IMG/VR virus record: IMGVR_UViG_3300045999_005873
DNA: 20,000 nt
Origin: an uncultured virus (IMG/VR IMGVR_UViG_3300045999_005873)
Lineage: Duplodnaviria; Heunggongvirae; Uroviricota; Caudoviricetes
Strand: one strand, 5' to 3'
In this document: one piece after another, positions 10,328-19,920 of the stretch
Numbering within the stretch: position 1 is the stretch's first letter
Layout: each line of letters opens with the position of its first letter
Position numbers and translations under genes: made by a program
Notes under the pieces: generated by a model
Databases searched by the model: none
What the model saw: only the letters and a program-made list of their open reading frames with translations
What the model was told of the DNA's origin: nothing

Positions 10328-11680
10328 TCAGGACGCCGCGGTCTTGAGGGCCACCACCGGGCCGGCGGTCGTGTTGTCGCCCAGCGAGTGGTGGTTAATG
10401 TCGAAGCGAAGCGTTCCCTGGAGGAGCAACTGGTCGGTCGTGGCGTACACTTGGTCGTACATCTTGACCGAGAAGTCACGGCGACGAGCGTAGATGCTCG
10501 ACAGGCCGAGGTTCGCGAACAGCACCTTCACCTTGCCAGCGTCGGCACCGAGCGTGCCGTCCATGACGTGGACGAGGTTCACCGGGTAGCCGAGGAACTG
10601 CTCGTTCACGCCGCCACCGACCTGCTCGACGGTGTTGCCACCAGCCGCGTAGCGGAGGCGGGCCATCGAGGCAGCGAAACCGGCCGGCGAGATGTAGAAG
10701 GCTGCACCCTGGCGGGCGTACAGCGGCATCCGGCCGATCAGCTTGATGAAGTCGGTCACGGTCAGGGTCTCGAAGCCCGTCGCACCCGTGCCGGCAGTCA
10801 GCACGCCAGCGGTGTGAGTGCCGTCGTTGATCTTCGGCACCACGCCGTGGATTCCGCCGAAGCTGGAGGTGCCGTCACCCAACCAACCGCACATATCCTG
10901 CTTGAGCGACAGCGAGGTGCTGAACTCCACTGCCACAGCATCAGCAATCGAAACCAGAGCGTCCTCTACGATTTCGCTCGACATCCGAGTGCCAACCGCC
11001 AGCTTTTTGGCGATAAGCTGCACATTGGAATAAGTGGGCTCGCTCTCGTTTACCGCCGTCCCTTCGCCCACGAAGTACGCTGCGGTGCCCGTAACCCGCT
11101 TGGGGATCACGAGGGTGTCGCGGGTCATCGTGACCTTCTCGACGTTGCTCGCGGCGAAGGTGCCGTAGTTTTCGACGAGACGAATCACGCGGGCCGCAAA
11201 CTCTTCGGGCACTAGAGCGCCACCCGACGAGTTGCTGCTCTCGCCCAGGGCACGGCTCTCGACGCCGTGATCCTTGCACCACCGGAGGTCTTCGGCGTTC
11301 TTGAAGATATGGGCTCGGAGCCACCGACCGCAGCGGTACGCGCTCTCGACGGCCTCGGGGCCGTCGTTGAATGCCCGCAGGCTGGTGTGGTGGGGCTGGA
11401 TCGAACGAATCTCGACCTTCTTGTCCTCGGCCTTGGCGGCCACTTCGGCAACCGGGGCAGGGGCGGGGGCGGCCTTCTCGACCACCGCACGCAGCTCGGC
11501 TTCCTTGGCGGCGATCCGCTCCTCGAAGTCGAGGGAAGTCTTCAGGTCGTCGGCCTGGGTGCCGAGCGAGATGAGTTCCTTGGTCTGCTCGGCCGAGCGA
11601 TCCTCGATACCGGACAGTTCGGTCATCCGAGCGGCGACAGCCGCGGCACGTTCCTGAAGACGCTTGAGATTCGATGCCAT
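10328..11680 (-). CDS. Major capsid protein, HK97 fold with N-terminal coiled-coil delta domain (450 aa)
   Basis: Start MASNLKRLQERAAA at 11680 with an AGGAG SD. Motifs SSGGALVPEEF, AYFVGEG, KKLAVGTRMSSEIVED, GDGT, FLGYPV and RFD. Confidence 0.93.
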   Translation of the reverse strand: MASNLKRLQERAAAVAARMTELSGIEDRSAEQTKELISLGTQADDLKTSLDFEERIAAKEAELRAVVEKAAPAPAPVAEVAAKAEDKKVEIRSIQPHHTSLRAFNDGPEAVESAYRCGRWLRAHIFKNAEDLRWCKDHGVESRALGESSNSSGGALVPEEFAARVIRLVENYGTFAASNVEKVTMTRDTLVIPKRVTGTAAYFVGEGTAVNESEPTYSNVQLIAKKLAVGTRMSSEIVEDALVSIADAVAVEFSTSLSLKQDMCGWLGDGTSSFGGIHGVVPKINDGTHTAGVLTAGTGATGFETLTVTDFIKLIGRMPLYARQGAAFYISPAGFAASMARLRYAAGGNTVEQVGGGVNEQFLGYPVNLVHVMDGTLGADAGKVKVLFANLGLSSIYARRRDFSVKMYDQVYATTDQLLLQGTLRFDINHHSLGDNTTAGPVVALKTAAS

Positions 11681-11831
11681 GTTTGGCCTGCTCCTGTGAT
11701 TGAGCCGGCCTAACGCACGATGCGGCGGCCGGCGGGTGATCCCGCTAGCGCGCCGCGTGCTTGAATCCTCAAGACGCTCGCACTGCTCTTCACGACATCC
11801 GTCGTGAAGCAATGTGTCTACTTGTAGACTA
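11681..11831 (-). promoter_or_regulatory. Highly structured 151-nt capsid leader with GGA-loop hairpins
   Basis: On the mRNA: GUCUAC-aa-GUAGAC (11816-11829), CUUCACGAC-ggau-GUCGUGAAG (11788-11809), CUUGA-ggau-UCAAG (11760-11773), GCGGG-auca-CCCGC (11732-11745), GCCGGCC...GGCCGGC (11704-11733), then CACAGGAG SD. Confidence 0.65.
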
Positions 11832-13499
11832 TCAAGCCTTCGGAAGACCGTGCAACTGAGTCCGAAGGATTGTGGCCTTCAGAGCCGCCAGCTTCACGTC
11901 GATGTCCAACTGTTCCTTGGCCGCCCGCATGTCCTCGGCGACCTTCTCGTCGACAGGTTCCGGCTTCTTCTCTTCGCTCATACGCTCCTCGGGGATGATC
12001 CACAGTTTGCACACGGCATCGGCAGCGATCTCGCCCTGCACGATGTAGCACCTGCCTTCCTCGCCCTCGAAGAAGACGCAGTTGCCGCACTTCACGCCGT
12101 CCTTGGCGAAGGGGTTTTCGGTCATGTAGTGAGCGTCGTTCTGCGAGAACGCGCCGAATTCCTCGGCGATGCCCTCATACGACTCGGCCAGGGCGAGGTT
12201 CGCGGGCGAGAGCACGGATTCGTACTCTTCCTCGATCTCCTCGCCTTCGACGATGTCTCGCTTTCCAGCGGCACGCTCCATCTGTGAGACCTTGGCCTCA
12301 CTCCACCGCCACGCCGGGTCGCCGCCCCAGAGCATCCAGGCGGTATAGCCGGGGGTCTCAGCGCCTTTCGCGCTCCAGCCGGCCTTCTTGTCGACCTTGT
12401 GACGCCGAAACCACGCCCGCATCTCGCGAACGTGCTCGGGCGTGAGTTCGTCGCGGTCGGCGATCTTGCCGGCACGCGCCACCGTCTCGGGCTTGAGCCC
12501 GTCGCCCGATCGGCCTTCCTCGTGGAGGGCCAATCCTCGCTTCGCGGCGGCTGCCATGCCCGCGGTGGGCTTCAGATTCACGTCGGAGGCGGCCCGTTCC
12601 TCGGCAGGAGCGTCGGAAACAGGGATTTCAGTGGCAGAGTCCACCGACGGGGCTGCTTCCGGCTGCGCGGAAGCAGCACGCCGATCCACCCACTTCTGCC
12701 CTGCATCTCCGCCGGCCAGTTGCCACTCGATCCAGGCCGGCGTGCCCGACCAGCCCGTCACTTTCGCCGCCAAGCAGCGTTCGTAGACTCCCGAGAGGTA
12801 CGAAACCTCCTCGACGGAGACGATTTCGCGGTTTGCGACACGTTCGGCGATGCACAGGAGGCGAGAATCGATGTTTTCTGCCTTCTGGGCGAGCTTCAGA
12901 CCGCGTTTCGCCGCGTTCGCCATCGTTTGGATGGGCCGATGGCTCTCGCCGAGGGCCATTTCGATGGCTCGACGGCTCACCACCACGCTGGACGAGTCAT
13001 ATGCAGGGCGAACCACTGGCCCAACGTCCTCGAGCAGCCCGATCGCACGCACTTCTCGCTTCCGAATGCCACGAGTATTGTCCGTAGACCACGAATCGCC
13101 ATTATCCCGACGGATTGCGAAGGCGAAACTTGACCCCACGACTGTCCTATCCTTCACCCATTCGATCACGTCGCGGCCGATGGACGTGTTTTCGTTCGGC
13201 GTGATCTCGTAACGAAGACCATAGGGGTCTTTCGTGAGCTTCATCGACCCGTTTCCGGTGCGGCCGAGGAGCAGATTGCGGTCGTGATTGAACACGCCGA
13301 TGACATCGGGGTTCTCGGCCAGCACTTCGTCGAACGCATTCGGGTGAATCGTCTCGACGAAGCCGCCCAGGTTGCGGCTCTCAGCGTTGAAGACGGCGGC
13401 GTAGCCCGAAATCACAGGCTTCTTCTCGCCGTTTCCCATGTCTCGGTACTCAATCGTCGCGTCCGAGACCGTCGTGCGCCGTTCAATTTCATTGCTCAT
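11832..13499 (-). CDS. Prohead maturation protease (HK97 family) with long multi-domain C-terminal extension
   Basis: The N-terminal ~180 aa contain ISGYAAVFN, GGFVETI, FNHDRNLLLGRT, GSSFAF and EDVGPVVRPAY. These are followed by two copies of an ~90-aa domain, a 4-Cys domain and a helical tail. Confidence 0.9.
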   Translation of the reverse strand: MSNEIERRTTVSDATIEYRDMGNGEKKPVISGYAAVFNAESRNLGGFVETIHPNAFDEVLAENPDVIGVFNHDRNLLLGRTGNGSMKLTKDPYGLRYEITPNENTSIGRDVIEWVKDRTVVGSSFAFAIRRDNGDSWSTDNTRGIRKREVRAIGLLEDVGPVVRPAYDSSSVVVSRRAIEMALGESHRPIQTMANAAKRGLKLAQKAENIDSRLLCIAERVANREIVSVEEVSYLSGVYERCLAAKVTGWSGTPAWIEWQLAGGDAGQKWVDRRAASAQPEAAPSVDSATEIPVSDAPAEERAASDVNLKPTAGMAAAAKRGLALHEEGRSGDGLKPETVARAGKIADRDELTPEHVREMRAWFRRHKVDKKAGWSAKGAETPGYTAWMLWGGDPAWRWSEAKVSQMERAAGKRDIVEGEEIEEEYESVLSPANLALAESYEGIAEEFGAFSQNDAHYMTENPFAKDGVKCGNCVFFEGEEGRCYIVQGEIAADAVCKLWIIPEERMSEEKKPEPVDEKVAEDMRAAKEQLDIDVKLAALKATILRTQLHGLPKA

Positions 13500-13969
13500 G
13501 CCGTCACCTGATTCGCGAGGTAGTTGTCCACACCGATCTGTTCGATCACACGCTGTTTTGCTTCGATCGCGGCCACCGCTTCTTCGCTGCCTTCGAGCAA
13601 CCGGGTGAAGATGACGGCGGAAATCTCGTCGCCGACGGCACGGCAGGCCGTCACGTTGGCTCGCTCGGCCTCCGCAGCGGCGGTTTCAAGTGCCAAGTTG
13701 GCCGCGAGGATGCCCTCGAAGTCGTGGCGAGGCCAGTCGGGCTGGTCGTGATCGTAGGCCGGCTGCTCGTCGTAGTATTCGAGCCTCGCCTGCACCTTGT
13801 GCAGGTGGCGGCGCTCCTCTTCGACCTCGCCGCGGGCGGCGTCGGCCAGCTTCCCGTAACCCCATCGATCGAAGTGCTCGGCCTGCGACTGATACGTCTC
13901 AATCGCGGTCATGTGCAGCCGAACGGAGGCTTGCAGGGCGTCGATCACGCCTTCAGGTGCTTGCGGCAT
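13496..13969 (-). CDS. Bacterioferritin-like protein with degenerate ferroxidase and heme sites
   Basis: 157 aa. Aligns essentially colinearly with E. coli Bfr as I recall it: AIxxY, WG..KL, EEERRH, RL, NLALE, GDEIS and the C-terminal IEQIGVDNYLANQ E-helix. Confidence 0.82.
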   Translation of the reverse strand: MPQAPEGVIDALQASVRLHMTAIETYQSQAEHFDRWGYGKLADAARGEVEEERRHLHKVQARLEYYDEQPAYDHDQPDWPRHDFEGILAANLALETAAAEAERANVTACRAVGDEISAVIFTRLLEGSEEAVAAIEAKQRVIEQIGVDNYLANQVTA

Positions 13970-15596
13970 CGGTTGTCAGGTGCTTGTCGCACCAGCCTTC
14001 AGTGACGGTTTCGTACTTCTGACCGCTGCGATGACACTCAAGCAAGAGGTCTCGCGAGCGGTTCACCCAATCTGACACAAACTTGTCGATGTCTCGTCCA
14101 GCGGCCTCTGCGGCCTCGCGAAGCTCTTCTCGCATCCGCTGGCTCGTCTGATCGAACCACGTCGCGATCTTCTCCGGCTTGCTGCGGCGCTCGAGCACGC
14201 CGGCAGCCTCGACCGCGGCGAGTCGCCGAAGGTTCGTCTTGAACAGCACCTCGGCACCGGCGAGCTGTCGGGCGTCCTCGACGGTTGCGGGGGCGTCAGG
14301 GGCCGGCGGCTCGGGCGTGGCGTCTACGCCGGCCGGCGGAGTCGGCGATGACTCGGTCTGCTTCTGGCCGGTCGGGTTGTCGGGCGTGAAAGCCTCGAGC
14401 AATTGCATATTGACCTGAACGAATCGCTTCTTGCCCAGGTCATCAGGCAGCGGGTTGTAGCCGATCTGAGCGCGGATTTCGTCGATGTCCAGGGCACCAA
14501 GGTTCGCCATCTCACGCAGGAACTGCGAACGCGCCGCATAGTCGCCGACCATCAGGGCGTTCGTGTCGAACTGGCAGAAATACTGCTTGTCGTCGACTAC
14601 GAGATCGCGGCGGCACGCCATTTCCCATCGGCGGCACCACGGGATCAGGCTGAACGTGACGAAGTCGATGGCCGATTGTTCCACCGTCGAAAAACGCACA
14701 TTCGACAAGTCGCCGATCAAATGGCCTGGGACGCGATAGGCTCGGCTGACTTCCTCGCATTGGTAGCGGCGAGTCTCAATGAGCTGGGCCGTATCGTTCC
14801 GCACCTCGATCTGCTTGCGGTGAAATCCGAACGGCATGACGACGGTCTTGTAGCTCTTGTCTGGGCCGGAATGAGCGTCATTCCACTGCTCCTTGAACCG
14901 CGACAGCACCTCGGGCTTATGAGGCTGATCGGTTTCGATATAGGTGCCGGGTGTCGCGCCGTTCCCGAAGAATGCACCAGAGTGCAATTCGGTCGCTCGG
15001 GCCAGCCCGATGGCGTCTCGGGAGAGGGTCGTGGGAACGAAGCCGGTCACGCCGTCAGATGAGAGCCAGCGAAGATGAAAAATCTCGTCCTGCCGATACT
15101 CCGTCACATTCACCTGGGGCTGGATCGGCGTCGTCGGCTCGGTGTAGTAATACCGGAGCTTGCCGTTGGTGAGCCGCTTGACCTCCATCCGCGACGGATG
15201 CAAAGGGATCAGCTCGGTCACGCCGCCCTGACGGCCGCCCTTGATATGGGCGTAGGCGTTGCCCCAGAGGAGGAGCCAACTTTGCATCAGCTCCCTGAAC
15301 TCGAAGCCCGTCATCCATGAGTTGGGCTGATAGCAGATCACCTCGTGGAGGTGCTGCTCTTCGGCGATTTCCTTGCCGCCGCCGGGGAGCCTGCGGTAGA
15401 CGTTGAACGGGAGGCTGGCGATCGACTCGGACAGCACCCGCACGCAGGCGAGAACTGCCGTGCATTCTAGGGCCGTCTCTGGCGAGACCGTGACGCCGGA
15501 TGCCGTGCGTCGAGTATTGGAAATCTCCTCGAAAATACGGGAGAGATTGCCGCGAAGCTCAATCAGATCGGAGACTTCCTCGTCGATCTTGTCCAC
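13953..15596 (-). CDS. Portal protein, HK97 family, with C-terminal extension
   Basis: AVLACVRVLSESIASLP, PNSWMTGFEFRE, LLWGNAYA, LIPLHPSRM, IFHLR, FFGNGATPG, YRVPGHLIG and DEIRAQIGYNP. Follows the terminase gene. Confidence 0.95.
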   Translation of the reverse strand: MDKIDEEVSDLIELRGNLSRIFEEISNTRRTASGVTVSPETALECTAVLACVRVLSESIASLPFNVYRRLPGGGKEIAEEQHLHEVICYQPNSWMTGFEFRELMQSWLLLWGNAYAHIKGGRQGGVTELIPLHPSRMEVKRLTNGKLRYYYTEPTTPIQPQVNVTEYRQDEIFHLRWLSSDGVTGFVPTTLSRDAIGLARATELHSGAFFGNGATPGTYIETDQPHKPEVLSRFKEQWNDAHSGPDKSYKTVVMPFGFHRKQIEVRNDTAQLIETRRYQCEEVSRAYRVPGHLIGDLSNVRFSTVEQSAIDFVTFSLIPWCRRWEMACRRDLVVDDKQYFCQFDTNALMVGDYAARSQFLREMANLGALDIDEIRAQIGYNPLPDDLGKKRFVQVNMQLLEAFTPDNPTGQKQTESSPTPPAGVDATPEPPAPDAPATVEDARQLAGAEVLFKTNLRRLAAVEAAGVLERRSKPEKIATWFDQTSQRMREELREAAEAAGRDIDKFVSDWVNRSRDLLLECHRSGQKYETVTEGWCDKHLTTDAAST

Positions 15597-15597
15597 G

Positions 15598-18177
15598 CTA
15601 GAGCACCATGAGAGTTGGTTCGTCGGTGTTGCCGTGGTTCTCGCTAGAGGAGATACCGAGGGCCATGATCAGAGAGACCGCGCCGTCGATGCGGGCCGTC
15701 GAGTGTGAGTGTTTTTTAGTAGGCTTTATGTTCCCGGCATCGTCGATCTTGACCTGAACATTCGACATCTGCCACGCCAGAACAGGGTTGCCGGCGTGTC
15801 GCAAGCGCTTAGAAACGCACAGAGTTTCAAGCAGCTTAGAAGGCGCGCTCATGCTGGCAAAACCTTGTCCAAACGGCTTAACGTCGATTCCCTCCGCTAC
15901 GAGTTGCGTCGTCAGATGCACCGCATTCCAGCGGTCGATTGCAATACCGCGAACCGCATTCTTCTCGCAAAACGAGAGAATGTAGTCTCGGACAGCGTCG
16001 TAATCCGTTATGTCGCCATCTGTTAGTGTAACAAAACCCGCGTCAGCCCAGGCTTGATACGGCACCCGGTCTTCCTTTGAACGCTTGTGCGCGTTCTCCT
16101 CGGGGATGAAGAAGTGGGCGTGAACGTCATACGTTCCATCGGCGTCAGGCCAGATCGCCACGAACGCCGTCGTGTCGAATGTGCTGGCGAGGTCAACGCC
16201 GCACCAGCATGGCCGCCCTGCCGTCGGCCGCAGCGGCTCGTTGTTGGCGTCCCAGGCACCGTGCCTGATCCACTTTGTTTCGGATTTTTGCCACTGGTCT
16301 AAGTGCAAAGTCCTGAAGACGACTTCGTCGGCCGGCGAGTCCTTTGCTTTCTGGGCGAATTGCTGGAAATACTCGGGTTTCAGCGTGATTCCGTAGTTCG
16401 GATTCGCCTTCTTCCACGTCTCCTCGATGAACGGATCGTCCTCGGGATCGGCGGCGTAGATGCACGGCAGGAACGAGTCGTCCTTCAGCACGCCATCGCG
16501 AATCTTCACTGCCCGCTGCCAGTCCTTGTAACACGGGCCGTCCATGTCGGTGCCGGCCGTCGTGATGTAGATGGTGAGCGGCTGACTCCTGGCACCAGTA
16601 CCCGTTTCTAATACGTCGACCAGCTCGCGATCGGGGAAGACGTGATATTCGTCGACCAAGACGCAGCTTGGGTTGTAGCCGTGCTTGGTTCCGGCCTCGC
16701 TCGAGATACAGAGCATCGTCGAGTTCTTCTCAGGGAACACGATGCTGTTTCGGTATATCTTGCACCGCTTCGCCAATGACGGGCAGCTTTCGACGAACTG
16801 CTTCGCCGCGGTATGGAGCAACGCCGCCTGGGAGCGGTCGCCGGCCGCGACGATCACCTCGGCCCCCTCGTCATCGCAGCAGAGCATGAACAATCCAACC
16901 GCTGCGGAAATCGCGGAGTTGTGCGTTGGGATGAGCGACCGGCCGGCAAGAAACATCCCGTCAGGAGATTCGACCTGAATGCAGCGGACGGGGACGGATG
17001 CGACTGGATCGCATGACACAATCTGCCGAGTTCGCGATCGTGCCGCCATTTTCGGTGGCGACTTCACCCTTTCCTGCTTTCGCGAAAGGCGAAACACCTT
17101 CATGGGTGCAAGTGGCGTGAACACGACTCGATACTTCGGCCCGACTGCAACGCCGCCAAGCTTGGCGACGGATTCCTTGAACGTCGCCTTCAGCCCCAAA
17201 GAAATAGCCAGCTCGGTGAATCCCTCTGCAAGCCGACGATTCGTGTTGCAGAACTCGCATTCGCCCGCCTTACTGATGGAGCCGTCTGTGTCCATTAGCC
17301 CCTGAAGCAGGGAGAGCCTCTGCGTAACACTCGCCAACAGATAGATTTCTGGGATGTGCTTGTTACCGAGAAGGCCCATTGCACGAAGCCTGCTTTGAAC
17401 AGAAGTTCGCATTTCTGCCGACAAAACGCGCGATTTTCTCCCGCCAAGGGTCACCGAGTAGTTGCCTTTGGCTTGATACACGGACACGGCAACGCCGGCT
17501 GCCTCCATGTTGACAACCGCTTCGCCAATGTCGTCCGATCCGACCGAAACTCGAGCGCATCGCGAGCTGCCATCGCCTAGCCAGACGCCGAGTATGTAGG
17601 GATCGACTGGAAGCTCATGCGAGAATGGGAACTGCACTGGCGCAGCGACCGTCACGCTGTGGTTTCTGTCTCGCCGCGGCCCTGCATGGCACGTCTCGGC
17701 GATCTCTGCTGTCGTGCGAATTCGCCACCCAGGCACGCCATCCCCGCATGGCCCGCGACCATCCCCCGGCCTGTCGATCCTCGCATTCGTGTACCAGAGG
17801 TGCTCGGCGTCGGCGACGATTGTTTCGCCCTGGCTGAAGCTCACGCCGTAGCACGGTCTGCCTCGCATCACCTCAGTGGCGGCTATGACCCTTGTCGGGC
17901 AGCCGTTGGGGTGAAATACCTCATCGCCGACATTCAGATCGCCCATCGTCGACCAGCCTGTGGTCGTCAGCACAGGCGTATCCAGGGCCAGCGCTTTTCC
18001 ATTCTTGCGGGGCAACGCAAGCAAACTCGTCCGATACTGCCGCAGGCCGTCAGCCTTCTTCGTGTTGAACAGCTTGTCGAGGTACTCGTCCTGCCAGGGT
18101 TGCAGGACAAACGGCTGCCCCGCAAAGTCACCTCGACTGTGCCGCAGTAAGCCGATGAAATCGCGGATATCAACCAC
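15598..18177 (-). CDS. terL: Terminase large subunit, intein-containing (859-aa precursor, ~500 aa spliced)
   Basis: LQPWQ Q-motif, Walker A PRKNGK|S, Walker B VLVDEYH, ITTAG, nuclease GVDLAST.D, IDRWNA and RIDGAVSLIMA. Confidence 0.96.
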   Translation of the reverse strand: MVDIRDFIGLLRHSRGDFAGQPFVLQPWQDEYLDKLFNTKKADGLRQYRTSLLALPRKNGKALALDTPVLTTTGWSTMGDLNVGDEVFHPNGCPTRVIAATEVMRGRPCYGVSFSQGETIVADAEHLWYTNARIDRPGDGRGPCGDGVPGWRIRTTAEIAETCHAGPRRDRNHSVTVAAPVQFPFSHELPVDPYILGVWLGDGSSRCARVSVGSDDIGEAVVNMEAAGVAVSVYQAKGNYSVTLGGRKSRVLSAEMRTSVQSRLRAMGLLGNKHIPEIYLLASVTQRLSLLQGLMDTDGSISKAGECEFCNTNRRLAEGFTELAISLGLKATFKESVAKLGGVAVGPKYRVVFTPLAPMKVFRLSRKQERVKSPPKMAARSRTRQIVSCDPVASVPVRCIQVESPDGMFLAGRSLIPTHNSAISAAVGLFMLCCDDEGAEVIVAAGDRSQAALLHTAAKQFVESCPSLAKRCKIYRNSIVFPEKNSTMLCISSEAGTKHGYNPSCVLVDEYHVFPDRELVDVLETGTGARSQPLTIYITTAGTDMDGPCYKDWQRAVKIRDGVLKDDSFLPCIYAADPEDDPFIEETWKKANPNYGITLKPEYFQQFAQKAKDSPADEVVFRTLHLDQWQKSETKWIRHGAWDANNEPLRPTAGRPCWCGVDLASTFDTTAFVAIWPDADGTYDVHAHFFIPEENAHKRSKEDRVPYQAWADAGFVTLTDGDITDYDAVRDYILSFCEKNAVRGIAIDRWNAVHLTTQLVAEGIDVKPFGQGFASMSAPSKLLETLCVSKRLRHAGNPVLAWQMSNVQVKIDDAGNIKPTKKHSHSTARIDGAVSLIMALGISSSENHGNTDEPTLMVL
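16918..17994 (-). mobile_element. Class 3 intein (359 aa) with LAGLIDADG homing endonuclease
   Basis: Begins ALALDTPVLTTTGW (Ala1). Block B is ADAEHLW, block F is VRCIQV, and it ends IPTHN followed by Ser+1. LAGLIDADG motifs are YILGVWLGDGS and LLQGLMDTDGS. Removing it restores PRKNGKSAISA. Confidence 0.93.
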
Positions 18178-18657: not shown

Positions 18658-18689
18658 ATAGTATTACTGAGTAGCCTTGCGGCGTGCAA
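18658..18689 (-). promoter_or_regulatory. Possible sigma70-like promoter for a leaderless terS transcript
   Basis: The minus strand reads TTGCAC-17 nt-TAATACTAT-cttcc-ATG. It is an AT-rich patch in GC-rich DNA, and terS has no SD. Confidence 0.35.
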
Positions 18690-19920
18690 AGGAGTCTGCA
18701 TCCTCGACTCCTCGCTGCCAGTTGCACTGCCAGCAAGCAGCTTGACAGTTGTCAAGGACGTGCCCAGGCGACGAGGGGCCGAAAGACAGTGGCACGATGT
18801 GGTCGATTGTTGGCGAACGCGGGTGGGGGGTTCGCGTGCCCACGATAGTCGTGAATGACCCAAGAAGCTTTACTCCGCAGAGCTGGCACTTCCACTTGCC
18901 TCGGATCATCACCGCCTCCTTGCAGACTTTCGTGTAAGGCGCGCCGTACTTCTTGCATCGCTGGCGAAAAGTGGAGGCGTTGCCGTGCCTTCTCCTGCTG
19001 GCTCGCTTGTTCTTTCGCCTATTTTCTCTGCACCTTGTCGCGGCACATGGATCGCAGAGCCACCGGCCTTTCTTTAGCTCGCCGCCACAGTCTGGGCACT
19101 GCTTGTGTTTTTTCATCGACGCCCTCTGCGCAGCATCGCGGCAGCAGCCGCAGACGACATGAGCAGGAGACGCAGCGTTTCGCTGCGATACGAACGATCT
19201 TCCGCACGGTTGGCACACAGAAGTCAGCGGCCACTGGTCGTCGCCCCACGACAGGAACCACGTTGCAAGCTTGTTCGCGACCTCAAGCGGTCGCTCCGCG
19301 CACTTCTTCTTGAGCCGGCGAGCCTCGAAGGCACAGTCCCGAGAGCAGTATTTTGACTGAGATGAGTAGCCGCCGGCAGCGAACCTTTTTCTTCGGAACC
19401 CGACGCCACAGTTTAGGCATTCGTATAGGCGAGCCCTGGAAAAGTTCCTACAGGAACGCGAGCAGAACATACTCGACTCCCGACTCGCCTTGAATGATTT
19501 GCCGCAATACTCGCAATTCTTCTCAGTGCCGCATCTAAACGACCACCGGCACTGATCGCTGCAATACTTCTTCCCTCGCAGGCCGCAGAAATTCTTGCCG
19601 CACTTGACGCAACTACACTGAACGCCTGCCCTGCGAATCGCTTCAGCATTCTTTACGCATTCGTTCGAGCAGTATTTCCGAGTAGTCCCTCTCCCTGGCG
19701 TATGATGAACAATCGCCCCGCACGTCGCGCAGACGGCGTCATCGGCCTTGCTCTTGCGATCGCCCAGGCGGCACTTTTCGCATCGCCTGCGGACGCGCCC
19801 CGGCACGCCGACCTTCTGAGGGACGTTGCATCCGCATCCTGCGCATGCGTGCGTGCCAGACTTGACCATGCGAGCGGTCGGCACGTCGCACAGACTACCA
19901 GATAAGACTGCGAATCGCAA
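18664..19920 (-). CDS. HNH endonuclease with N-terminal array of Cys4 zinc-finger repeats (start uncertain; ATG 19869 is an alternative)
   Basis: C-terminal WKCQLCG...PTIDHIVPLS...HVLDNCQAACWQCN. Repeated CxxCG...(K/M)(Y/F)CSxxC units precede it. Confidence 0.85.
   Translation of the reverse strand: MRFAVLSGSLCDVPTARMVKSGTHACAGCGCNVPQKVGVPGRVRRRCEKCRLGDRKSKADDAVCATCGAIVHHTPGRGTTRKYCSNECVKNAEAIRRAGVQCSCVKCGKNFCGLRGKKYCSDQCRWSFRCGTEKNCEYCGKSFKASRESSMFCSRSCRNFSRARLYECLNCGVGFRRKRFAAGGYSSQSKYCSRDCAFEARRLKKKCAERPLEVANKLATWFLSWGDDQWPLTSVCQPCGRSFVSQRNAASPAHVVCGCCRDAAQRASMKKHKQCPDCGGELKKGRWLCDPCAATRCRENRRKNKRASRRRHGNASTFRQRCKKYGAPYTKVCKEAVMIRGKWKCQLCGVKLLGSFTTIVGTRTPHPRSPTIDHIVPLSFGPSSPGHVLDNCQAACWQCNWQRGVEDADSFARRKATQ

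What the first reader, a model, noticed from the sequence alone, without database searches (positions are those of the whole stretch)
11990..12135. HiPIP-like [4Fe-4S] domain fused near the C-terminus of the prohead protease
Seen: AHY...KCGNCVFFEGEEGRCYIVQGEIAADAVCKLW, i.e. Y...C-x2-C-x-F...C-x12-C-x2-W. Established: this spacing and aromatic pattern matches small high-potential iron-sulfur proteins (Y..CxxCxxF..C..V.G.I...GWCxxW), though here AVC replaces GWC. Inference: together with the adjacent Bfr-like gene, it suggests a two-part iron/redox module attached to head maturation. Bfr iron release normally needs a partner ferredoxin (Bfd).
Basis: partly seen in the sequence, partly recalled or inferred. 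Interest (0 to 1): 0.8.

Follow-up and report, generated by a model that had tools for sequence, protein, structure and literature searches.

The report
HiPIP-like iron-sulfur cassette in phage heads
The tail end of this uncultured phage's head-maturation protease carries a small four-cysteine domain that looks like a bacterial high-potential iron-sulfur protein, and the same domain is attached to many different proteins that end up inside phage heads, so it is probably a metal-cluster passenger of the capsid interior, not a partner of the neighbouring ferritin-like gene.

Summary

The HiPIP reading is supported:
- A family profile finds only HiPIPs at the top of the PDB sequences (best E 2e-4).
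- hhalign against a genuine PioC-type HiPIP gives 97% probability.
- An AlphaFold model (pLDDT 93) matches HiPIPs as the top 7 of 48,161 chains.
- The window stays under Pfam's HIPIP cut-off (17.7 against 22 bits). It has no signal peptide and lacks the Gly-Trp before the last Cys.

I therefore file it as a divergent HiPIP-fold domain, not a canonical HiPIP.

The domain is a mobile cassette with 392 cluster representatives and at least 589 IMG/VR contigs. It is fused to three protease families, portals, capsid proteins and toxin-bearing head proteins, or stands alone.

The proposed ferritin link is weak:
- Ferritin is found in 26 of 80, 0 of 79 and 0 of 14 sampled loci.
- One ferritin-bearing relative lacks the cassette.
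- The ferritin-like protein lacks the haem-binding Met and one ferroxidase His of bacterioferritin.

Metal content and role remain untested.

The parts
11832..13499 (-). Whole gene: 555-aa prohead protease with passenger domains
   Evidence: ORF, translation. Close homologues of the same architecture are named 'HK97 family phage prohead protease' by sources.
12960..13442 (-). Peptidase_S78 (HK97-type prohead serine protease) domain, aa 20-180
   Evidence: Pfam PF04586 E 1.7e-36. TIGR01543 scores 77.7 bits, over the cut-off of 59.
12681..12950 (-). 'Mid' domain, diverged first copy, aa ~184-273
   Evidence: Internal BLAST cross-match of aa 280-400 to the aa 162-271 region of the L110 homologue, E 5e-10. 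My mid-domain HMM hits two places in the close relatives P0077 and P0078. No Pfam family matches.
12291..12590 (-). 'Mid' domain, second copy, aa ~304-403; unannotated helical-looking domain (consensus ...RGL.L.E.G.SGDGL...AWFARH.VDK...WGG..)
   Evidence: Alignment A4. phrog_2859 (unknown function) covers aa 307-409, E 1.5e-12. No PDB sequence relative. No Pfam family in the nearest ESM Atlas clusters.
11991..12230 (-). HiPIP-like cassette, aa ~424-503: one helix (aa ~432-448) followed by the compact Cys4 core
   Evidence: A2 conservation. AlphaFold2 model with pLDDT 93.4 and pTM 0.84. PDB profile hits to HiPIPs. VIA-align Z 5.0-6.9 to HiPIPs. hhalign 97% to a PioC-type HiPIP.
12009..12089 (-). 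The four putative cluster ligands: C471 (12087-12089), C474 (12078-12080), C484 (12048-12050), C497 (12009-12011). Flanking invariant residues are Y458 (12126-12128) and W500 (12000-12002).
   Evidence: Invariant in 51 of 51 sequences of A2. Aligned to the Cys ligands of 3h31, 1hpi and PioC and of a bacterial HiPIP.
11835..11990 (-). Charged linker and conserved C-terminal tail (…KLAALKATILRTQLHG…), aa 504-555; probable capsid-tethering end of the protease
   Evidence: The tail is conserved in the L110 homologue that lacks the cassette (13 of 20 identical) and in P0039 and P0047. The tethering role is inferred from recalled knowledge of HK97-type proteases and was not tested.
13496..13969 (-). 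Neighbouring ferritin-like gene (157 aa); its stop overlaps the protease start (ATGA)
   Evidence: Pfam Ferritin E 2.7e-13. TIGR00754 bfr scores 65.9 bits, under the cut-off of 125.55. End-to-end alignment to bacterioferritins. Altered metal and haem positions.
13953..15596 (-). Portal gene (context)
   Evidence: Pfam Phage_portal E 4.3e-89.
10328..11812 (-). Major capsid protein ORF with a ~190-aa N-terminal extension (context; the true start may be an internal ATG)
   Evidence: Pfam Phage_capsid covers aa 197-472, E 2e-26.

Best explanation
Residues ~424-503 of the prohead protease form a self-contained cassette. It has one helix and a compact PioC-like HiPIP fold. Its four invariant cysteines most likely hold a buried [4Fe-4S] cubane. 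The cassette is a mobile passenger domain of uncultured, mostly aquatic tailed phages. It is attached to whichever protein faces the inside of the procapsid: prohead proteases of three unrelated families, the C-terminal end of portals, the N-terminal end of capsid proteins, and MuF-like or toxin-bearing internal head proteins. It can also be encoded as a small gene right after the protease. In this phage it sits between the protease (plus two 'mid' domains) and the conserved C-terminal tail, so every protease molecule built into a procapsid would carry one copy inside. The cassette is not needed for protease action and is not tied to the ferritin-like gene. My best guess for its role is an oxygen-tolerant cluster that serves as the structural core of an acidic head-lumen or virion-delivered accessory domain, not a link in an electron chain. 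Shown here: the sequence family, the HiPIP-type homology and fold, the range of fusion partners, and the natural loss of the cassette. Inferred: cluster binding, location in the capsid lumen, and the role.
For: HiPIP homology:
- The A2 profile against 177,635 PDB sequences gives HiPIPs as its five best hits: 3h31 E 2.2e-4, 1hpi 0.048, PioC 6xyv 0.051, 1pih 0.64, 2hip 0.66. The Tyr and all four Cys align to the ligands.
- Pfam HIPIP is hit by 32 of 51 family members at E<=0.1, best 1.1e-5. One relative, P0082, reaches 23 bits, over the cut-off of 22.
- hhalign of A2 against a 94-aa bacterial HiPIP that passes Pfam's cut-off (28.5 bits) and has a twin-arginine leader gives 97.0% probability and E 1.1e-10.

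Fold:
- The AlphaFold2 model has pLDDT 93.4.
- With VIA-align, the top 7 of 48,161 chains are all HiPIPs (Z 6.9 to 5.0). PioC is covered over 54 of its 54 residues at 2.5 A.
- Ranks 8-10 (benzylsuccinate synthase and a glycyl radical enzyme entry) are, from recall, small 4Fe-4S subunits of glycyl-radical enzymes. Only 15 chains reach Z>=2.
- In Foldseek, 14 of the 17 rows shown are HiPIPs.

Mobility and lumen-facing partners, among 94 representatives longer than 260 aa:
- Peptidase_S78 29, S78_2 6, S49/ClpP 4
- Phage_portal 4
- Phage_capsid 2, plus one protease-capsid fusion
- Zeta_toxin 9, ADP-ribosyltransferase 4, NUDIX 1
- no Pfam family 30

Further points on mobility:
- PHROG 'head morphogenesis/minor head protein' hits occur in 5 of 15 scanned proteins, and one portal of 2398 aa carries the domain.
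- BFVD shows the same partners.
- A split form exists: in L133 a 227-aa S78 protease is followed directly by a small HiPIP ORF.
- On a FastTree of the domain, the fusion partner changes at least 17 times among 60 labelled rows. Shuffled labels give a mean of 28.6 and a minimum of 25.

Dispensability: the L110 protease is 65% identical. It keeps S78, both mid domains and the C-terminal tail, but lacks the cassette.

The domain is acidic. Median net charge is -9 over 154 domain copies and -14 in the window, which argues against DNA binding.
Against: - No metal was measured, and the model carries no cofactor. I could not read Cys-Cys distances.
- The window's own score is below Pfam's HIPIP cut-off: 13.7 bits for the whole protein and 17.7 for the domain alone, against 22. 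19 of 51 members do not hit HIPIP even at E 0.1.
- Foldseek E-values are weak (0.1 or worse), and VIA Z values below 8 are in the range the tool calls 'middling'.
- The Gly-Trp that shields the cluster before the last Cys in HiPIPs is replaced by small or aliphatic residues.
- Location inside the capsid is inferred from what is known of other phages' proteases, portals and capsid N-termini. It is not shown for this phage.
- Whether the cassette stays in the mature virion, is degraded, or is ejected is unknown.
- The partner counts rest on representatives picked by similarity to this window's domain.
- The tree of an ~85-residue domain is weakly resolved and may overcount partner changes.
Confidence: 0.55

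Rival explanations
1. One reading: the HiPIP-like domain is the redox partner of the adjacent Bfr-like protein, a Bfd-like electron donor for iron release or an acceptor for iron loading. Together they would form a two-part iron module attached to head maturation.
For: The two genes are adjacent and co-oriented, and their stop and start overlap as ATGA. In the window's own lineage they travel together: 30 of the 35 ferritin loci with at least 2.1 kb of sequence downstream also have the cassette. Both are iron-related by homology.
Against: Ferritin-like genes were found in 26 of 80 cassette loci nearest the window. That set includes a whole sister clade whose portal directly abuts the protease. 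They were found in 0 of 79 loci of a second sample and in 0 of 14 MAG loci. L110 keeps the ferritin and lacks the cassette. L123-L126 carry the ferritin without head genes in their flanks, and in L123 it sits between a helicase and a DNA methylase gene. Compared with bacterioferritin residues (numbers recalled), the haem Met52 position is R, F or L in 40 of 40 relatives and the His130 position is A, S or G in 40 of 40. The protein scores under the bfr equivalog cut-off. From recall, Bfd is a [2Fe-2S] protein of a different fold.
Confidence: 0.08
2. The four cysteines bind zinc, or form disulfides or no metal site. The domain would then be a structural knuckle that merely descends from a HiPIP ancestor.
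For: Cluster binding is untested. The Gly-Trp cluster shield before the last Cys is lost. The window is below Pfam's cut-off. From recall, Cys4 sites in viral proteins have often been assigned to one metal and later reassigned to the other.
Against: The spacing C-x2-C-x8-C-x12-C is found in 111 of 150 members, and the third gap is 12 in 149 of 150. This is the spacing seen in PioC and in the bacterial HiPIP, not the paired CxxC...CxxC of zinc ribbons. The aromatic residues that pack on the cubane in HiPIPs (Tyr, Phe/Tyr after Cys2, Trp after Cys4) are invariant or nearly so. No zinc-binding fold appears among the 15 chains with Z>=2 except ZntR at Z 2.4. A zinc-finger Pfam family is hit by 1 of 51 members, at E 0.055.
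Confidence: 0.15
3. The cluster is a sensor of oxygen, redox state or iron supply. Its state would gate protease activation or the timing of head maturation.
For: Proteases are the most frequent fusion partners, 39 of 94 long representatives. The cassette can lie on either side of the protease domain. From recall, Fe-S clusters are common sensors.
Against: The same cassette is fused to portals, capsid proteins, zeta toxins, ADP-ribosyltransferases and a NUDIX enzyme, and it also stands alone. Three unrelated protease folds would all have to be gated in the same way. A close relative works without it. From recall, HiPIP-type clusters are unusually inert to oxygen, which makes them poor sensors.
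Confidence: 0.1

Closest known systems
PioC-type short HiPIPs (Pfam PF01355; PDB 6xyv; also 3h31, 1isu)
   Same: Same fold by model comparison: Z 5.9 over 54 of 54 residues of PioC, and Z 6.9 to 3h31. Same Cys spacing, C-x2-C-x8/9-C-x12-C. The Tyr is aligned, as are the CxNC motif and the Trp three residues after the last Cys. hhalign gives 97% probability to a bacterial member.
   Different: The window scores below Pfam's gathering cut-off (17.7 against 22 bits). There is no twin-arginine leader; the domain is internal to a cytoplasmic phage protein. Gly-Trp before Cys4 is replaced by A/G plus I/V/L. There is an extra conserved N-terminal helix and a GAHY..NPF motif. The domain is always found in phage head-gene contexts. 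The redox potential is unknown.
HiPIP-like [4Fe-4S] small subunits of glycyl-radical enzymes (benzylsuccinate synthase, PDB 4pkf/9pzj; 2y8n chain B)
   Same: These are the next-best structural matches after true HiPIPs, at Z 3.6-2.6. From recall, they are accessory Fe-S subunits that support a larger protein and do not carry electrons in a chain. That is the kind of role I propose here.
   Different: No detectable sequence relation was found here. They are bacterial metabolic enzymes, not virion proteins.
Lambda gpL-type tail tip proteins with an iron-sulfur cluster (Tam et al. 2013, J Mol Biol 425:2450)
   Same: This is a precedent for an Fe-S cluster in a phage morphogenetic or virion protein. 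I saw the paper only as reference 105 of PMC13255074 and as the topic of search hits. I did not read it.
   Different: It is a tail tip protein, not a head protein, and has no HiPIP fold to my knowledge (recalled).
Polyvalent proteins of phages and conjugative elements (Iyer et al. 2017, PMC5512222)
   Same: The cassette shares polypeptides with zeta toxins, ADP-ribosyltransferases, NUDIX, ParB/sulfiredoxin-named, helicase-named and MuF-like head-morphogenesis modules. This is the domain repertoire that paper describes for head-packaged, injected proteins.
   Different: A term search of that paper's main text found no 'HiPIP', 'iron-sulfur', 'Fe-S', '4Fe-4S' or 'cysteine'. Its supplements were not looked at. 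In this window the only partner is the prohead protease.
Bacterioferritin with its ferredoxin Bfd
   Same: Here too an iron-storage-type four-helix protein is encoded next to a small Cys4 iron-sulfur-type domain.
   Different: The haem-ligand Met and one ferroxidase His are absent from the phage ferritin-like protein. From recall, Bfd is a [2Fe-2S] protein of another fold. Co-occurrence is confined to one lineage.
Encapsulin nanocompartments with ferritin-like cargo
   Same: They have an HK97-fold shell whose lumen receives iron-handling cargo through terminal tethers. I saw only search listings; the rest is recalled.
   Different: The phage ferritin-like protein has no terminal extension beyond bacterioferritin length (157 aa, aligned 7-155 of 158). 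Packaging of either protein is untested.

Membership tests
HiPIP (Pfam PF01355) | Score at or above Pfam's gathering cut-off (22 bits) | tested here: not met
   Whole protein 13.7 bits, E 0.077. Domain alone 17.7 bits, E 0.0044. Of the relatives, 32 of 51 hit at E<=0.1, and one (P0082) reaches 23 bits.
HiPIP (Pfam PF01355) | Four Cys ligands spaced C-x2-C-x(8-16)-C-x(12-13)-C | tested here: met
   The window has C-x2-C-x9-C-x12-C. In the family, x8 occurs in 111 of 150 and the last gap is 12 in 149 of 150. All four Cys align to the ligands of 3h31, 1hpi and PioC. The range given for HiPIPs is recalled.
HiPIP (Pfam PF01355) | HiPIP fold | tested here: met
   The model has pLDDT 93.4. The top 7 of 48,161 chains are HiPIPs at Z 5.0-6.9. 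14 of the 17 Foldseek rows shown are HiPIPs, but with E>=0.1.
HiPIP (Pfam PF01355) | Conserved Tyr and aromatic residues packing on the cluster, including Gly-Trp before the fourth Cys | tested here: inconclusive
   The Tyr (Y458), Phe after Cys2 and Trp after Cys4 are invariant or nearly so and align. Gly-Trp before Cys4 is absent: the position is A/G plus I/V/L in 141 of 150. The list of HiPIP core residues is recalled.
HiPIP (Pfam PF01355) | Periplasmic soluble electron carrier exported by a twin-arginine signal | tested here: not met
   The domain lies at residues 424-503 of a 555-aa phage protein with no leader. The bacterial comparator does have an SRRNLL leader. That HiPIPs are Tat substrates is recalled.
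HiPIP (Pfam PF01355) | Binds a [4Fe-4S] cluster cycling 3+/2+ at high potential | not testable with these tools
   Needs purified protein, with UV-vis, EPR, Mossbauer and voltammetry.
Bfr-Bfd iron-release pair | Bacterioferritin with a haem ligated by Met52 and a complete ferroxidase centre | tested here: not met
   The position aligned to the haem Met is R53 in the window and is R, F or L in 40 of 40 relatives. The position aligned to His130 is A, S or G in 40 of 40. TIGR00754 scores 65.9 bits, under the cut-off of 125.55. The Bfr residue numbers are recalled.
Bfr-Bfd iron-release pair | Partners co-occur across genomes | tested here: not met
   Ferritin was found in 26 of 80, 0 of 79 and 0 of 14 cassette loci. 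In the converse test, 30 of 35 ferritin loci with enough downstream sequence carry the cassette, all from one lineage; L110 and L123-L126 do not. The ferritin search used the window's protein or an HMM of its near relatives, so very distant ferritins could be missed.
Head-packaged 'polyvalent' / internal head proteins | Domain shares polypeptides with a head-anchoring module (portal, MuF-like, protease) and with effector or toxin modules | tested here: met
   This is met at family level. In the window's own protein only the protease anchor is present.
Head-packaged 'polyvalent' / internal head proteins | Physically present in procapsids or virions and delivered to the host | not testable with these tools
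   Needs virion proteomics or cryo-EM of a cultured carrier.

The most novel reading that the evidence does not exclude
The heads of a large group of uncultured aquatic phages are loaded, through their protease, portal, capsid or internal proteins, with tens to hundreds of oxygen-stable HiPIP-type [4Fe-4S] domains per particle. In this lineage these are made together with a phage ferritin-like protein that buffers the iron. The virion would then be a real sink and vehicle for iron and ready-made iron-sulfur protein, either delivered into the next host with the DNA or locked away in particles. This would be a head-based counterpart of the 'Ferrojan Horse' idea and a functional echo of iron-storing encapsulins.
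Probability: 0.12. Interest if true: 0.85.

Novelty: new variant of a known kind. Interest (0 to 1): 0.6.

Why it matters
From recall, HiPIPs are known as exported electron carriers of photosynthetic and iron-oxidising bacteria. Here the same fold appears as an internal, cytoplasmically made domain of phage head-assembly and head-delivered proteins. The family has hundreds of sequence clusters. No curated family covers it, and it is almost absent from cultured phages: 0 and 1 hits in 50,697 records.

If it binds a cluster, it would be the first iron-sulfur module of the phage head, to set beside the tail-tip cluster of lambda gpL. It would add a measurable iron cost to each virion in iron-poor waters, and it would add a new cofactor-bearing domain to the repertoire of proteins that phages pack and inject.

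The question is directly testable. Stand-alone members are only 76-111 residues long, and one deposited freshwater actinophage carries a related copy.

Automatic annotation has already labelled a few UniProt members as 'HiPIP profile domain-containing', so the resemblance itself is not new. The breadth of the family, its context and the negative result on the ferritin link are new.

Tried and rejected
- Single-sequence PDB search with the domain gave only chance gelsolin hits at E>=0.2. A profile was needed.
- NCBIfam has no model for the domain. PHROGs gave no hit for three stand-alone members.
- tblastn of the window's domain against 50,697 phage records found nothing. A second member found one weak hit at 28.6% identity and E 2e-3, in the 'capsid maturation protease' of a freshwater actinophage. 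That protein carries a variant Cys4 motif.
- Complex prediction with two ferritin-like chains, one 4Fe-4S and the cassette scored 0.00, with the verdict 'no answer'. This is not evidence either way.
- In the nearest complete virus record (74,090 bp), a Pfam scan at E<=1e-5 of the 60 longer ORFs picked outside the head module, out of 95 called, found no Isc/Suf/Nif-type assembly genes and only one radical-SAM gene.
- The mid domain at first looked like an obligate partner: it was in 72 of 80 nearest loci and 57 of 79 in the second sample. It is present in only 40 of 150 representative proteins, so I dropped that idea.
- For the mid domain, the PDB profile search gave nothing below E 0.019 and the ESM Atlas gave only unnamed viral clusters. 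A structure prediction of it was not accepted by the tool, so its fold is unknown.
- DNA binding by the cassette was rejected because of its strong net negative charge.
- Literature searches found no paper on a HiPIP-type domain in phage head proteins: 'HiPIP'+'phage' (20 papers, none on this topic); 'high potential iron-sulfur protein'+'bacteriophage'+'capsid' (0 papers); 'iron-sulfur'+'prohead protease' (8 papers, 7 listed; only one was opened, PMC5332604, which concerns IscU and not this domain; the rest were judged from titles and abstract starts); 'high-potential iron-sulfur'+'virus'+'auxiliary metabolic' (0 papers). Subscription journals and bioRxiv supplements were not searchable.
Full report
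THE OBSERVATION

The minus-strand ORF 11832-13499 encodes 555 residues. Residues 20-180 are an HK97-type prohead serine protease: Pfam Peptidase_S78 has E 1.7e-36, and TIGR01543 scores 77.7 bits, above its cut-off of 59. Residues 456-500 read AHYMTENPFAKDGVKCGNCVFFEGEEGRCYIVQGEIAADAVCKLW. I checked the Cys and Trp codons on the + strand.

The gene lies in a standard head module. The order is small terminase, large terminase, portal (13953-15596), a 157-aa ferritin-like gene (13496-13969), this protease, then the major capsid protein (10328-11812). The window's own assembly is not held. The nearest record is a 74,090-bp virus contig rated complete.

IT IS A CONSERVED DOMAIN FAMILY, NOT A CHANCE MOTIF

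- A search of 1.84 billion cluster representatives with residues 440-510 found 392 proteins at E<=1e-3 and 138 at E<=1e-10.
- The four-Cys pattern is present in 222 of the 223 proteins then in hand. The exception is a fragment.
- In an alignment of the window's domain with 50 small members (A2), Y, G, the four Cys, V and W are invariant. GAH, PF, N (in CxNC), F, G, I, K and I are at least 90% conserved.
- The spacing is C-x2-C-x8-C-x12-C in 111 of 150 members, and the last gap is 12 in 149 of 150.
The cassette is therefore roughly residues 424-503.

IS IT HiPIP-LIKE?

Evidence for:
- A profile of A2 searched against all PDB sequences returns HiPIPs as its five best hits: 3h31 at E 2.2e-4, then 1hpi, PioC 6xyv, 1pih and 2hip. 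The next hits are T7 DNA polymerase at E 1.7. The alignments place the invariant Tyr and all four Cys on the HiPIP positions.
- Pfam's HIPIP model is hit by 32 of 51 members at E<=0.1, best 1.1e-5. One relative passes the gathering cut-off (P0082, 23 bits).
- I fetched two genuine bacterial HiPIPs from 201 genomes. The A2 profile aligns to the 94-aa PioC-like one, which has a twin-arginine leader, with 97.0% probability and E 1.1e-10. It aligns to the longer classical one with 47.8% probability and E 1.9e-4.
- An AlphaFold2 model built on A2 is confident (pLDDT 93.4, pTM 0.84).
- Aligned against 48,161 PDB representatives, its seven best matches are all HiPIPs (Z 6.9-5.0). PioC is covered end to end (54 of 54 residues, 2.5 A). 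Ranks 8-10 are small subunits of benzylsuccinate synthase and another glycyl-radical enzyme; from recall, these are HiPIP-like [4Fe-4S] subunits. Only 15 chains reach Z 2.
- Foldseek agrees in ranking, with 14 of the 17 rows shown being HiPIPs, but its E-values are weak at 0.1 or worse.

Evidence against full membership:
- The window itself is under Pfam's cut-off: 13.7 bits for the whole protein and 17.7 for the domain, against 22.
- There is no export signal.
- The Gly-Trp before the last Cys is replaced by A/G plus an aliphatic residue.

I therefore treat it as a divergent, PioC-like member of the HiPIP fold and do not file it as a canonical HiPIP. Whether it binds a cluster cannot be tested here.

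WHERE THE CASSETTE OCCURS

Among 94 representatives longer than 260 aa (I left out one protein of 2398 aa because of the size limit), Pfam at E<=1e-4 finds the following:
- Peptidase_S78 in 29, Peptidase_S78_2 (XkdF) in 6, S49 or ClpP proteases in 4
- Phage_portal in 4
- Phage_capsid in 2, plus one protease-capsid fusion
- Zeta_toxin in 9, ADP-ribosyltransferase in 4, NUDIX in 1, DUF5824 in 5
- nothing in 30

Further context:
- The 2398-aa protein is a portal by PHROGs. Other members carry 'head morphogenesis' or 'minor head protein' modules.
- 55 of the 150 representatives are 260 aa or shorter, down to 76 aa. Public sources call these 'hypothetical protein' or nothing; 3 of the 23 listed members of 10 clusters carry a name.
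- In locus L133 a 227-aa S78 protease is followed directly by a small cassette ORF, which is a split form.
- In L052 the cassette sits in the C-terminal extension of a 1079-aa portal.
- The cassette lies on either side of the protease domain.
- On a quick tree of the domain, the partner type changes at least 17 times among 60 labelled rows. The minimum possible is 6, and shuffled labels give a mean of 28.6. The tree of so short a domain is weak, so this is only an indication of frequent shuffling.
- BFVD shows the same picture in UniProt. All 15 matches at E<=0.001 are from 'uncultured Caudovirales phage'. They are named prohead protease, XkdF, SppA, zeta toxin, ParB/sulfiredoxin, HAD-like or helicase. 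One is auto-named 'High potential iron-sulfur proteins family profile domain-containing protein'.
- The cassette is nearly absent from deposited phage genomes (0 and 1 of 50,697 records).
- In 185,579 species genomes, a pattern-based scan found it only on 14 short contigs, 13 of them labelled MAG. These too hold portal, protease or capsid genes.

What unites the partners is, by established knowledge of HK97-like phages (recalled, not tested here), that they face the inside of the procapsid. The prohead protease, the portal's C-terminal crown, the capsid protein's N-terminal extension and MuF-type internal proteins all do so.

IT IS AN ACCESSORY

A 65%-identical protease in locus L110 keeps the S78 domain, both 'mid' domains and the C-terminal tail (…KIASLKATILRNSLHG against …KLAALKATILRTQLHG), but has no cassette. 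The cassette is flanked by Ala/Pro/Ser-rich and acidic linkers. It is itself strongly acidic: median net charge is -9 over 154 copies and -14 here. That makes DNA binding unlikely.

THE FERRITIN QUESTION

The neighbour is a full-length bacterioferritin homologue (aligned 7-155 of 158, best PDB E 3.5e-13), but it scores under the bfr equivalog cut-off (65.9 against 125.55 bits). Using Bfr residue numbers from recall:
- The position of the haem-binding Met52 is Arg here and is never Met in 40 relatives.
- The position of His130 is Ala here and is A, S or G in all 40.
- The position of Glu18 is His in all 40.
- E52, H55 and E129 are kept, and E95 is E or D.

Co-occurrence:
- Among the 80 IMG/VR loci most like the window's cassette, 26 have the ferritin-like gene. 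A sister clade (for example L029-L055) has the portal directly abutting the protease and still keeps the cassette.
- In a second sample, drawn with a stand-alone member as query, 0 of 79 new loci have it.
- 0 of the 14 MAG loci have it.
- In the converse direction, 40 loci hold a close relative of the ferritin-like gene. Of the 35 with at least 2.1 kb downstream, 30 hold the cassette. The exceptions are L110 and L123-L126. The latter four show no head genes in their flanks, and in L123, the one scanned, the gene lies between a UvrD-type helicase and a DNA methylase.

So the pairing is a feature of one lineage, and both genes move independently. The ATGA overlap of the ferritin stop with the protease start shows co-expression here, nothing more. 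The ferritin searches used the window's protein or an HMM of its near relatives, so very distant ferritin-like genes could have been missed.

HOW IT MOST LIKELY WORKS

Shown:
- a discrete, highly conserved Cys4 cassette
- of HiPIP type by sequence and predicted fold
- shuffled among head-assembly and head-delivered proteins
- dispensable for the protease

Inferred:
- It holds a [4Fe-4S] cluster. The aromatic shell and the spacing are those of HiPIPs.
- It is carried into the procapsid lumen by its host protein. In this phage that means one copy per protease molecule. From recall, HK97-like proheads contain tens to over a hundred protease molecules.
- The cluster mainly serves as an air-stable structural core of a small acidic accessory domain, much as the HiPIP-like subunits of glycyl-radical enzymes do.

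What the domain then does is open. It could be space-filling or scaffolding-type cargo removed at maturation, or a protein delivered to the next host alongside toxin domains. I put 0.55 on the composite reading.

KNOWN OR NEW

- Four literature searches found no paper on such a domain in phage head proteins.
- A term search of the polyvalent-protein survey (PMC5512222, main text only) found no HiPIP, iron-sulfur or cysteine.
- The known virion Fe-S precedent is the lambda gpL tail-tip family. I saw it only as a reference.
- The 'Ferrojan Horse' idea concerns iron in tails. I saw this only in the abstract of bioRxiv 10.1101/674382.
This agrees with the family-level picture found here.
- Automatic annotation already flags a few members as HiPIP-profile proteins.

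I rate it a new variant of a known kind. The fold is familiar, but the setting is unstudied and widespread. Its cofactor and role need bench work.

LIMITS

- No metal data exist.
- The samples of loci are similarity-ranked, not random.
- The mid domain's fold could not be predicted.
- Supplements of the cited papers were not examined.

Noticed in passing
window 13496-13969 (-): The ferritin-like gene between portal and protease is a bacterioferritin-length homologue with a changed metal site. It has His at the Bfr Glu18 position, no His at the Bfr His130 position, and Arg at the haem Met52 position. These changes are conserved in 40 of 40 phage relatives. In other phages the same gene sits in a replication module (L123-L126). 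It is probably a distinct phage ferritin-like clade without haem.
   Followed up: partly
window 12291-12590 and 12681-12950 (-): An unannotated ~100-residue 'mid' domain is present twice in the protease; the first copy is diverged. Its consensus is ...RGL.L.E.G.SGDGL...AWFARH.VDK...WGG. It has no Pfam or PDB sequence match. It is common next to the HiPIP-like cassette, in either order: 72 of 80 and 57 of 79 loci, but only 40 of 150 representative proteins.
   Followed up: partly
window 15598-18177 (-), about 17161-17355: The large terminase ORF is 859 aa. It carries LAGLIDADG_3 and Hom_end homing-endonuclease matches at aa 275-339, ahead of the ATPase and nuclease domains. This suggests an intein or an inserted homing endonuclease.
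   Followed up: no
window 18664-19920 (-): A 418-aa ORF with a C-terminal HNH endonuclease domain lies upstream of the small terminase gene.
   Followed up: no
P0076, P0082, P0083; L132:2851-3210 (Actinomycetia phage DSL-LC01): A second, more divergent subtype of the cassette ends in C(R)(F/L)A.IP instead of CKLWIIP. It occurs in tandem with the main type in three representatives. It also occurs alone at the C-terminus of an 851-aa 'capsid maturation protease' of a deposited freshwater actinophage.
   Followed up: partly
L214:11379-12107 (nearest complete virus record G001): The nearest complete relative encodes a radical-SAM protein, another [4Fe-4S] enzyme. No Isc/Suf/Nif assembly genes were found among the 60 ORFs scanned.
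   Followed up: no
BFVD hit A0A879R316 (Synechococcus phage S-SRM01): A 67-aa stand-alone protein of a cultured cyanophage, auto-named as HiPIP-profile-containing, matches the model at E 1.3e-3. It may be a separate acquisition of a true HiPIP by a phage.
   Followed up: no
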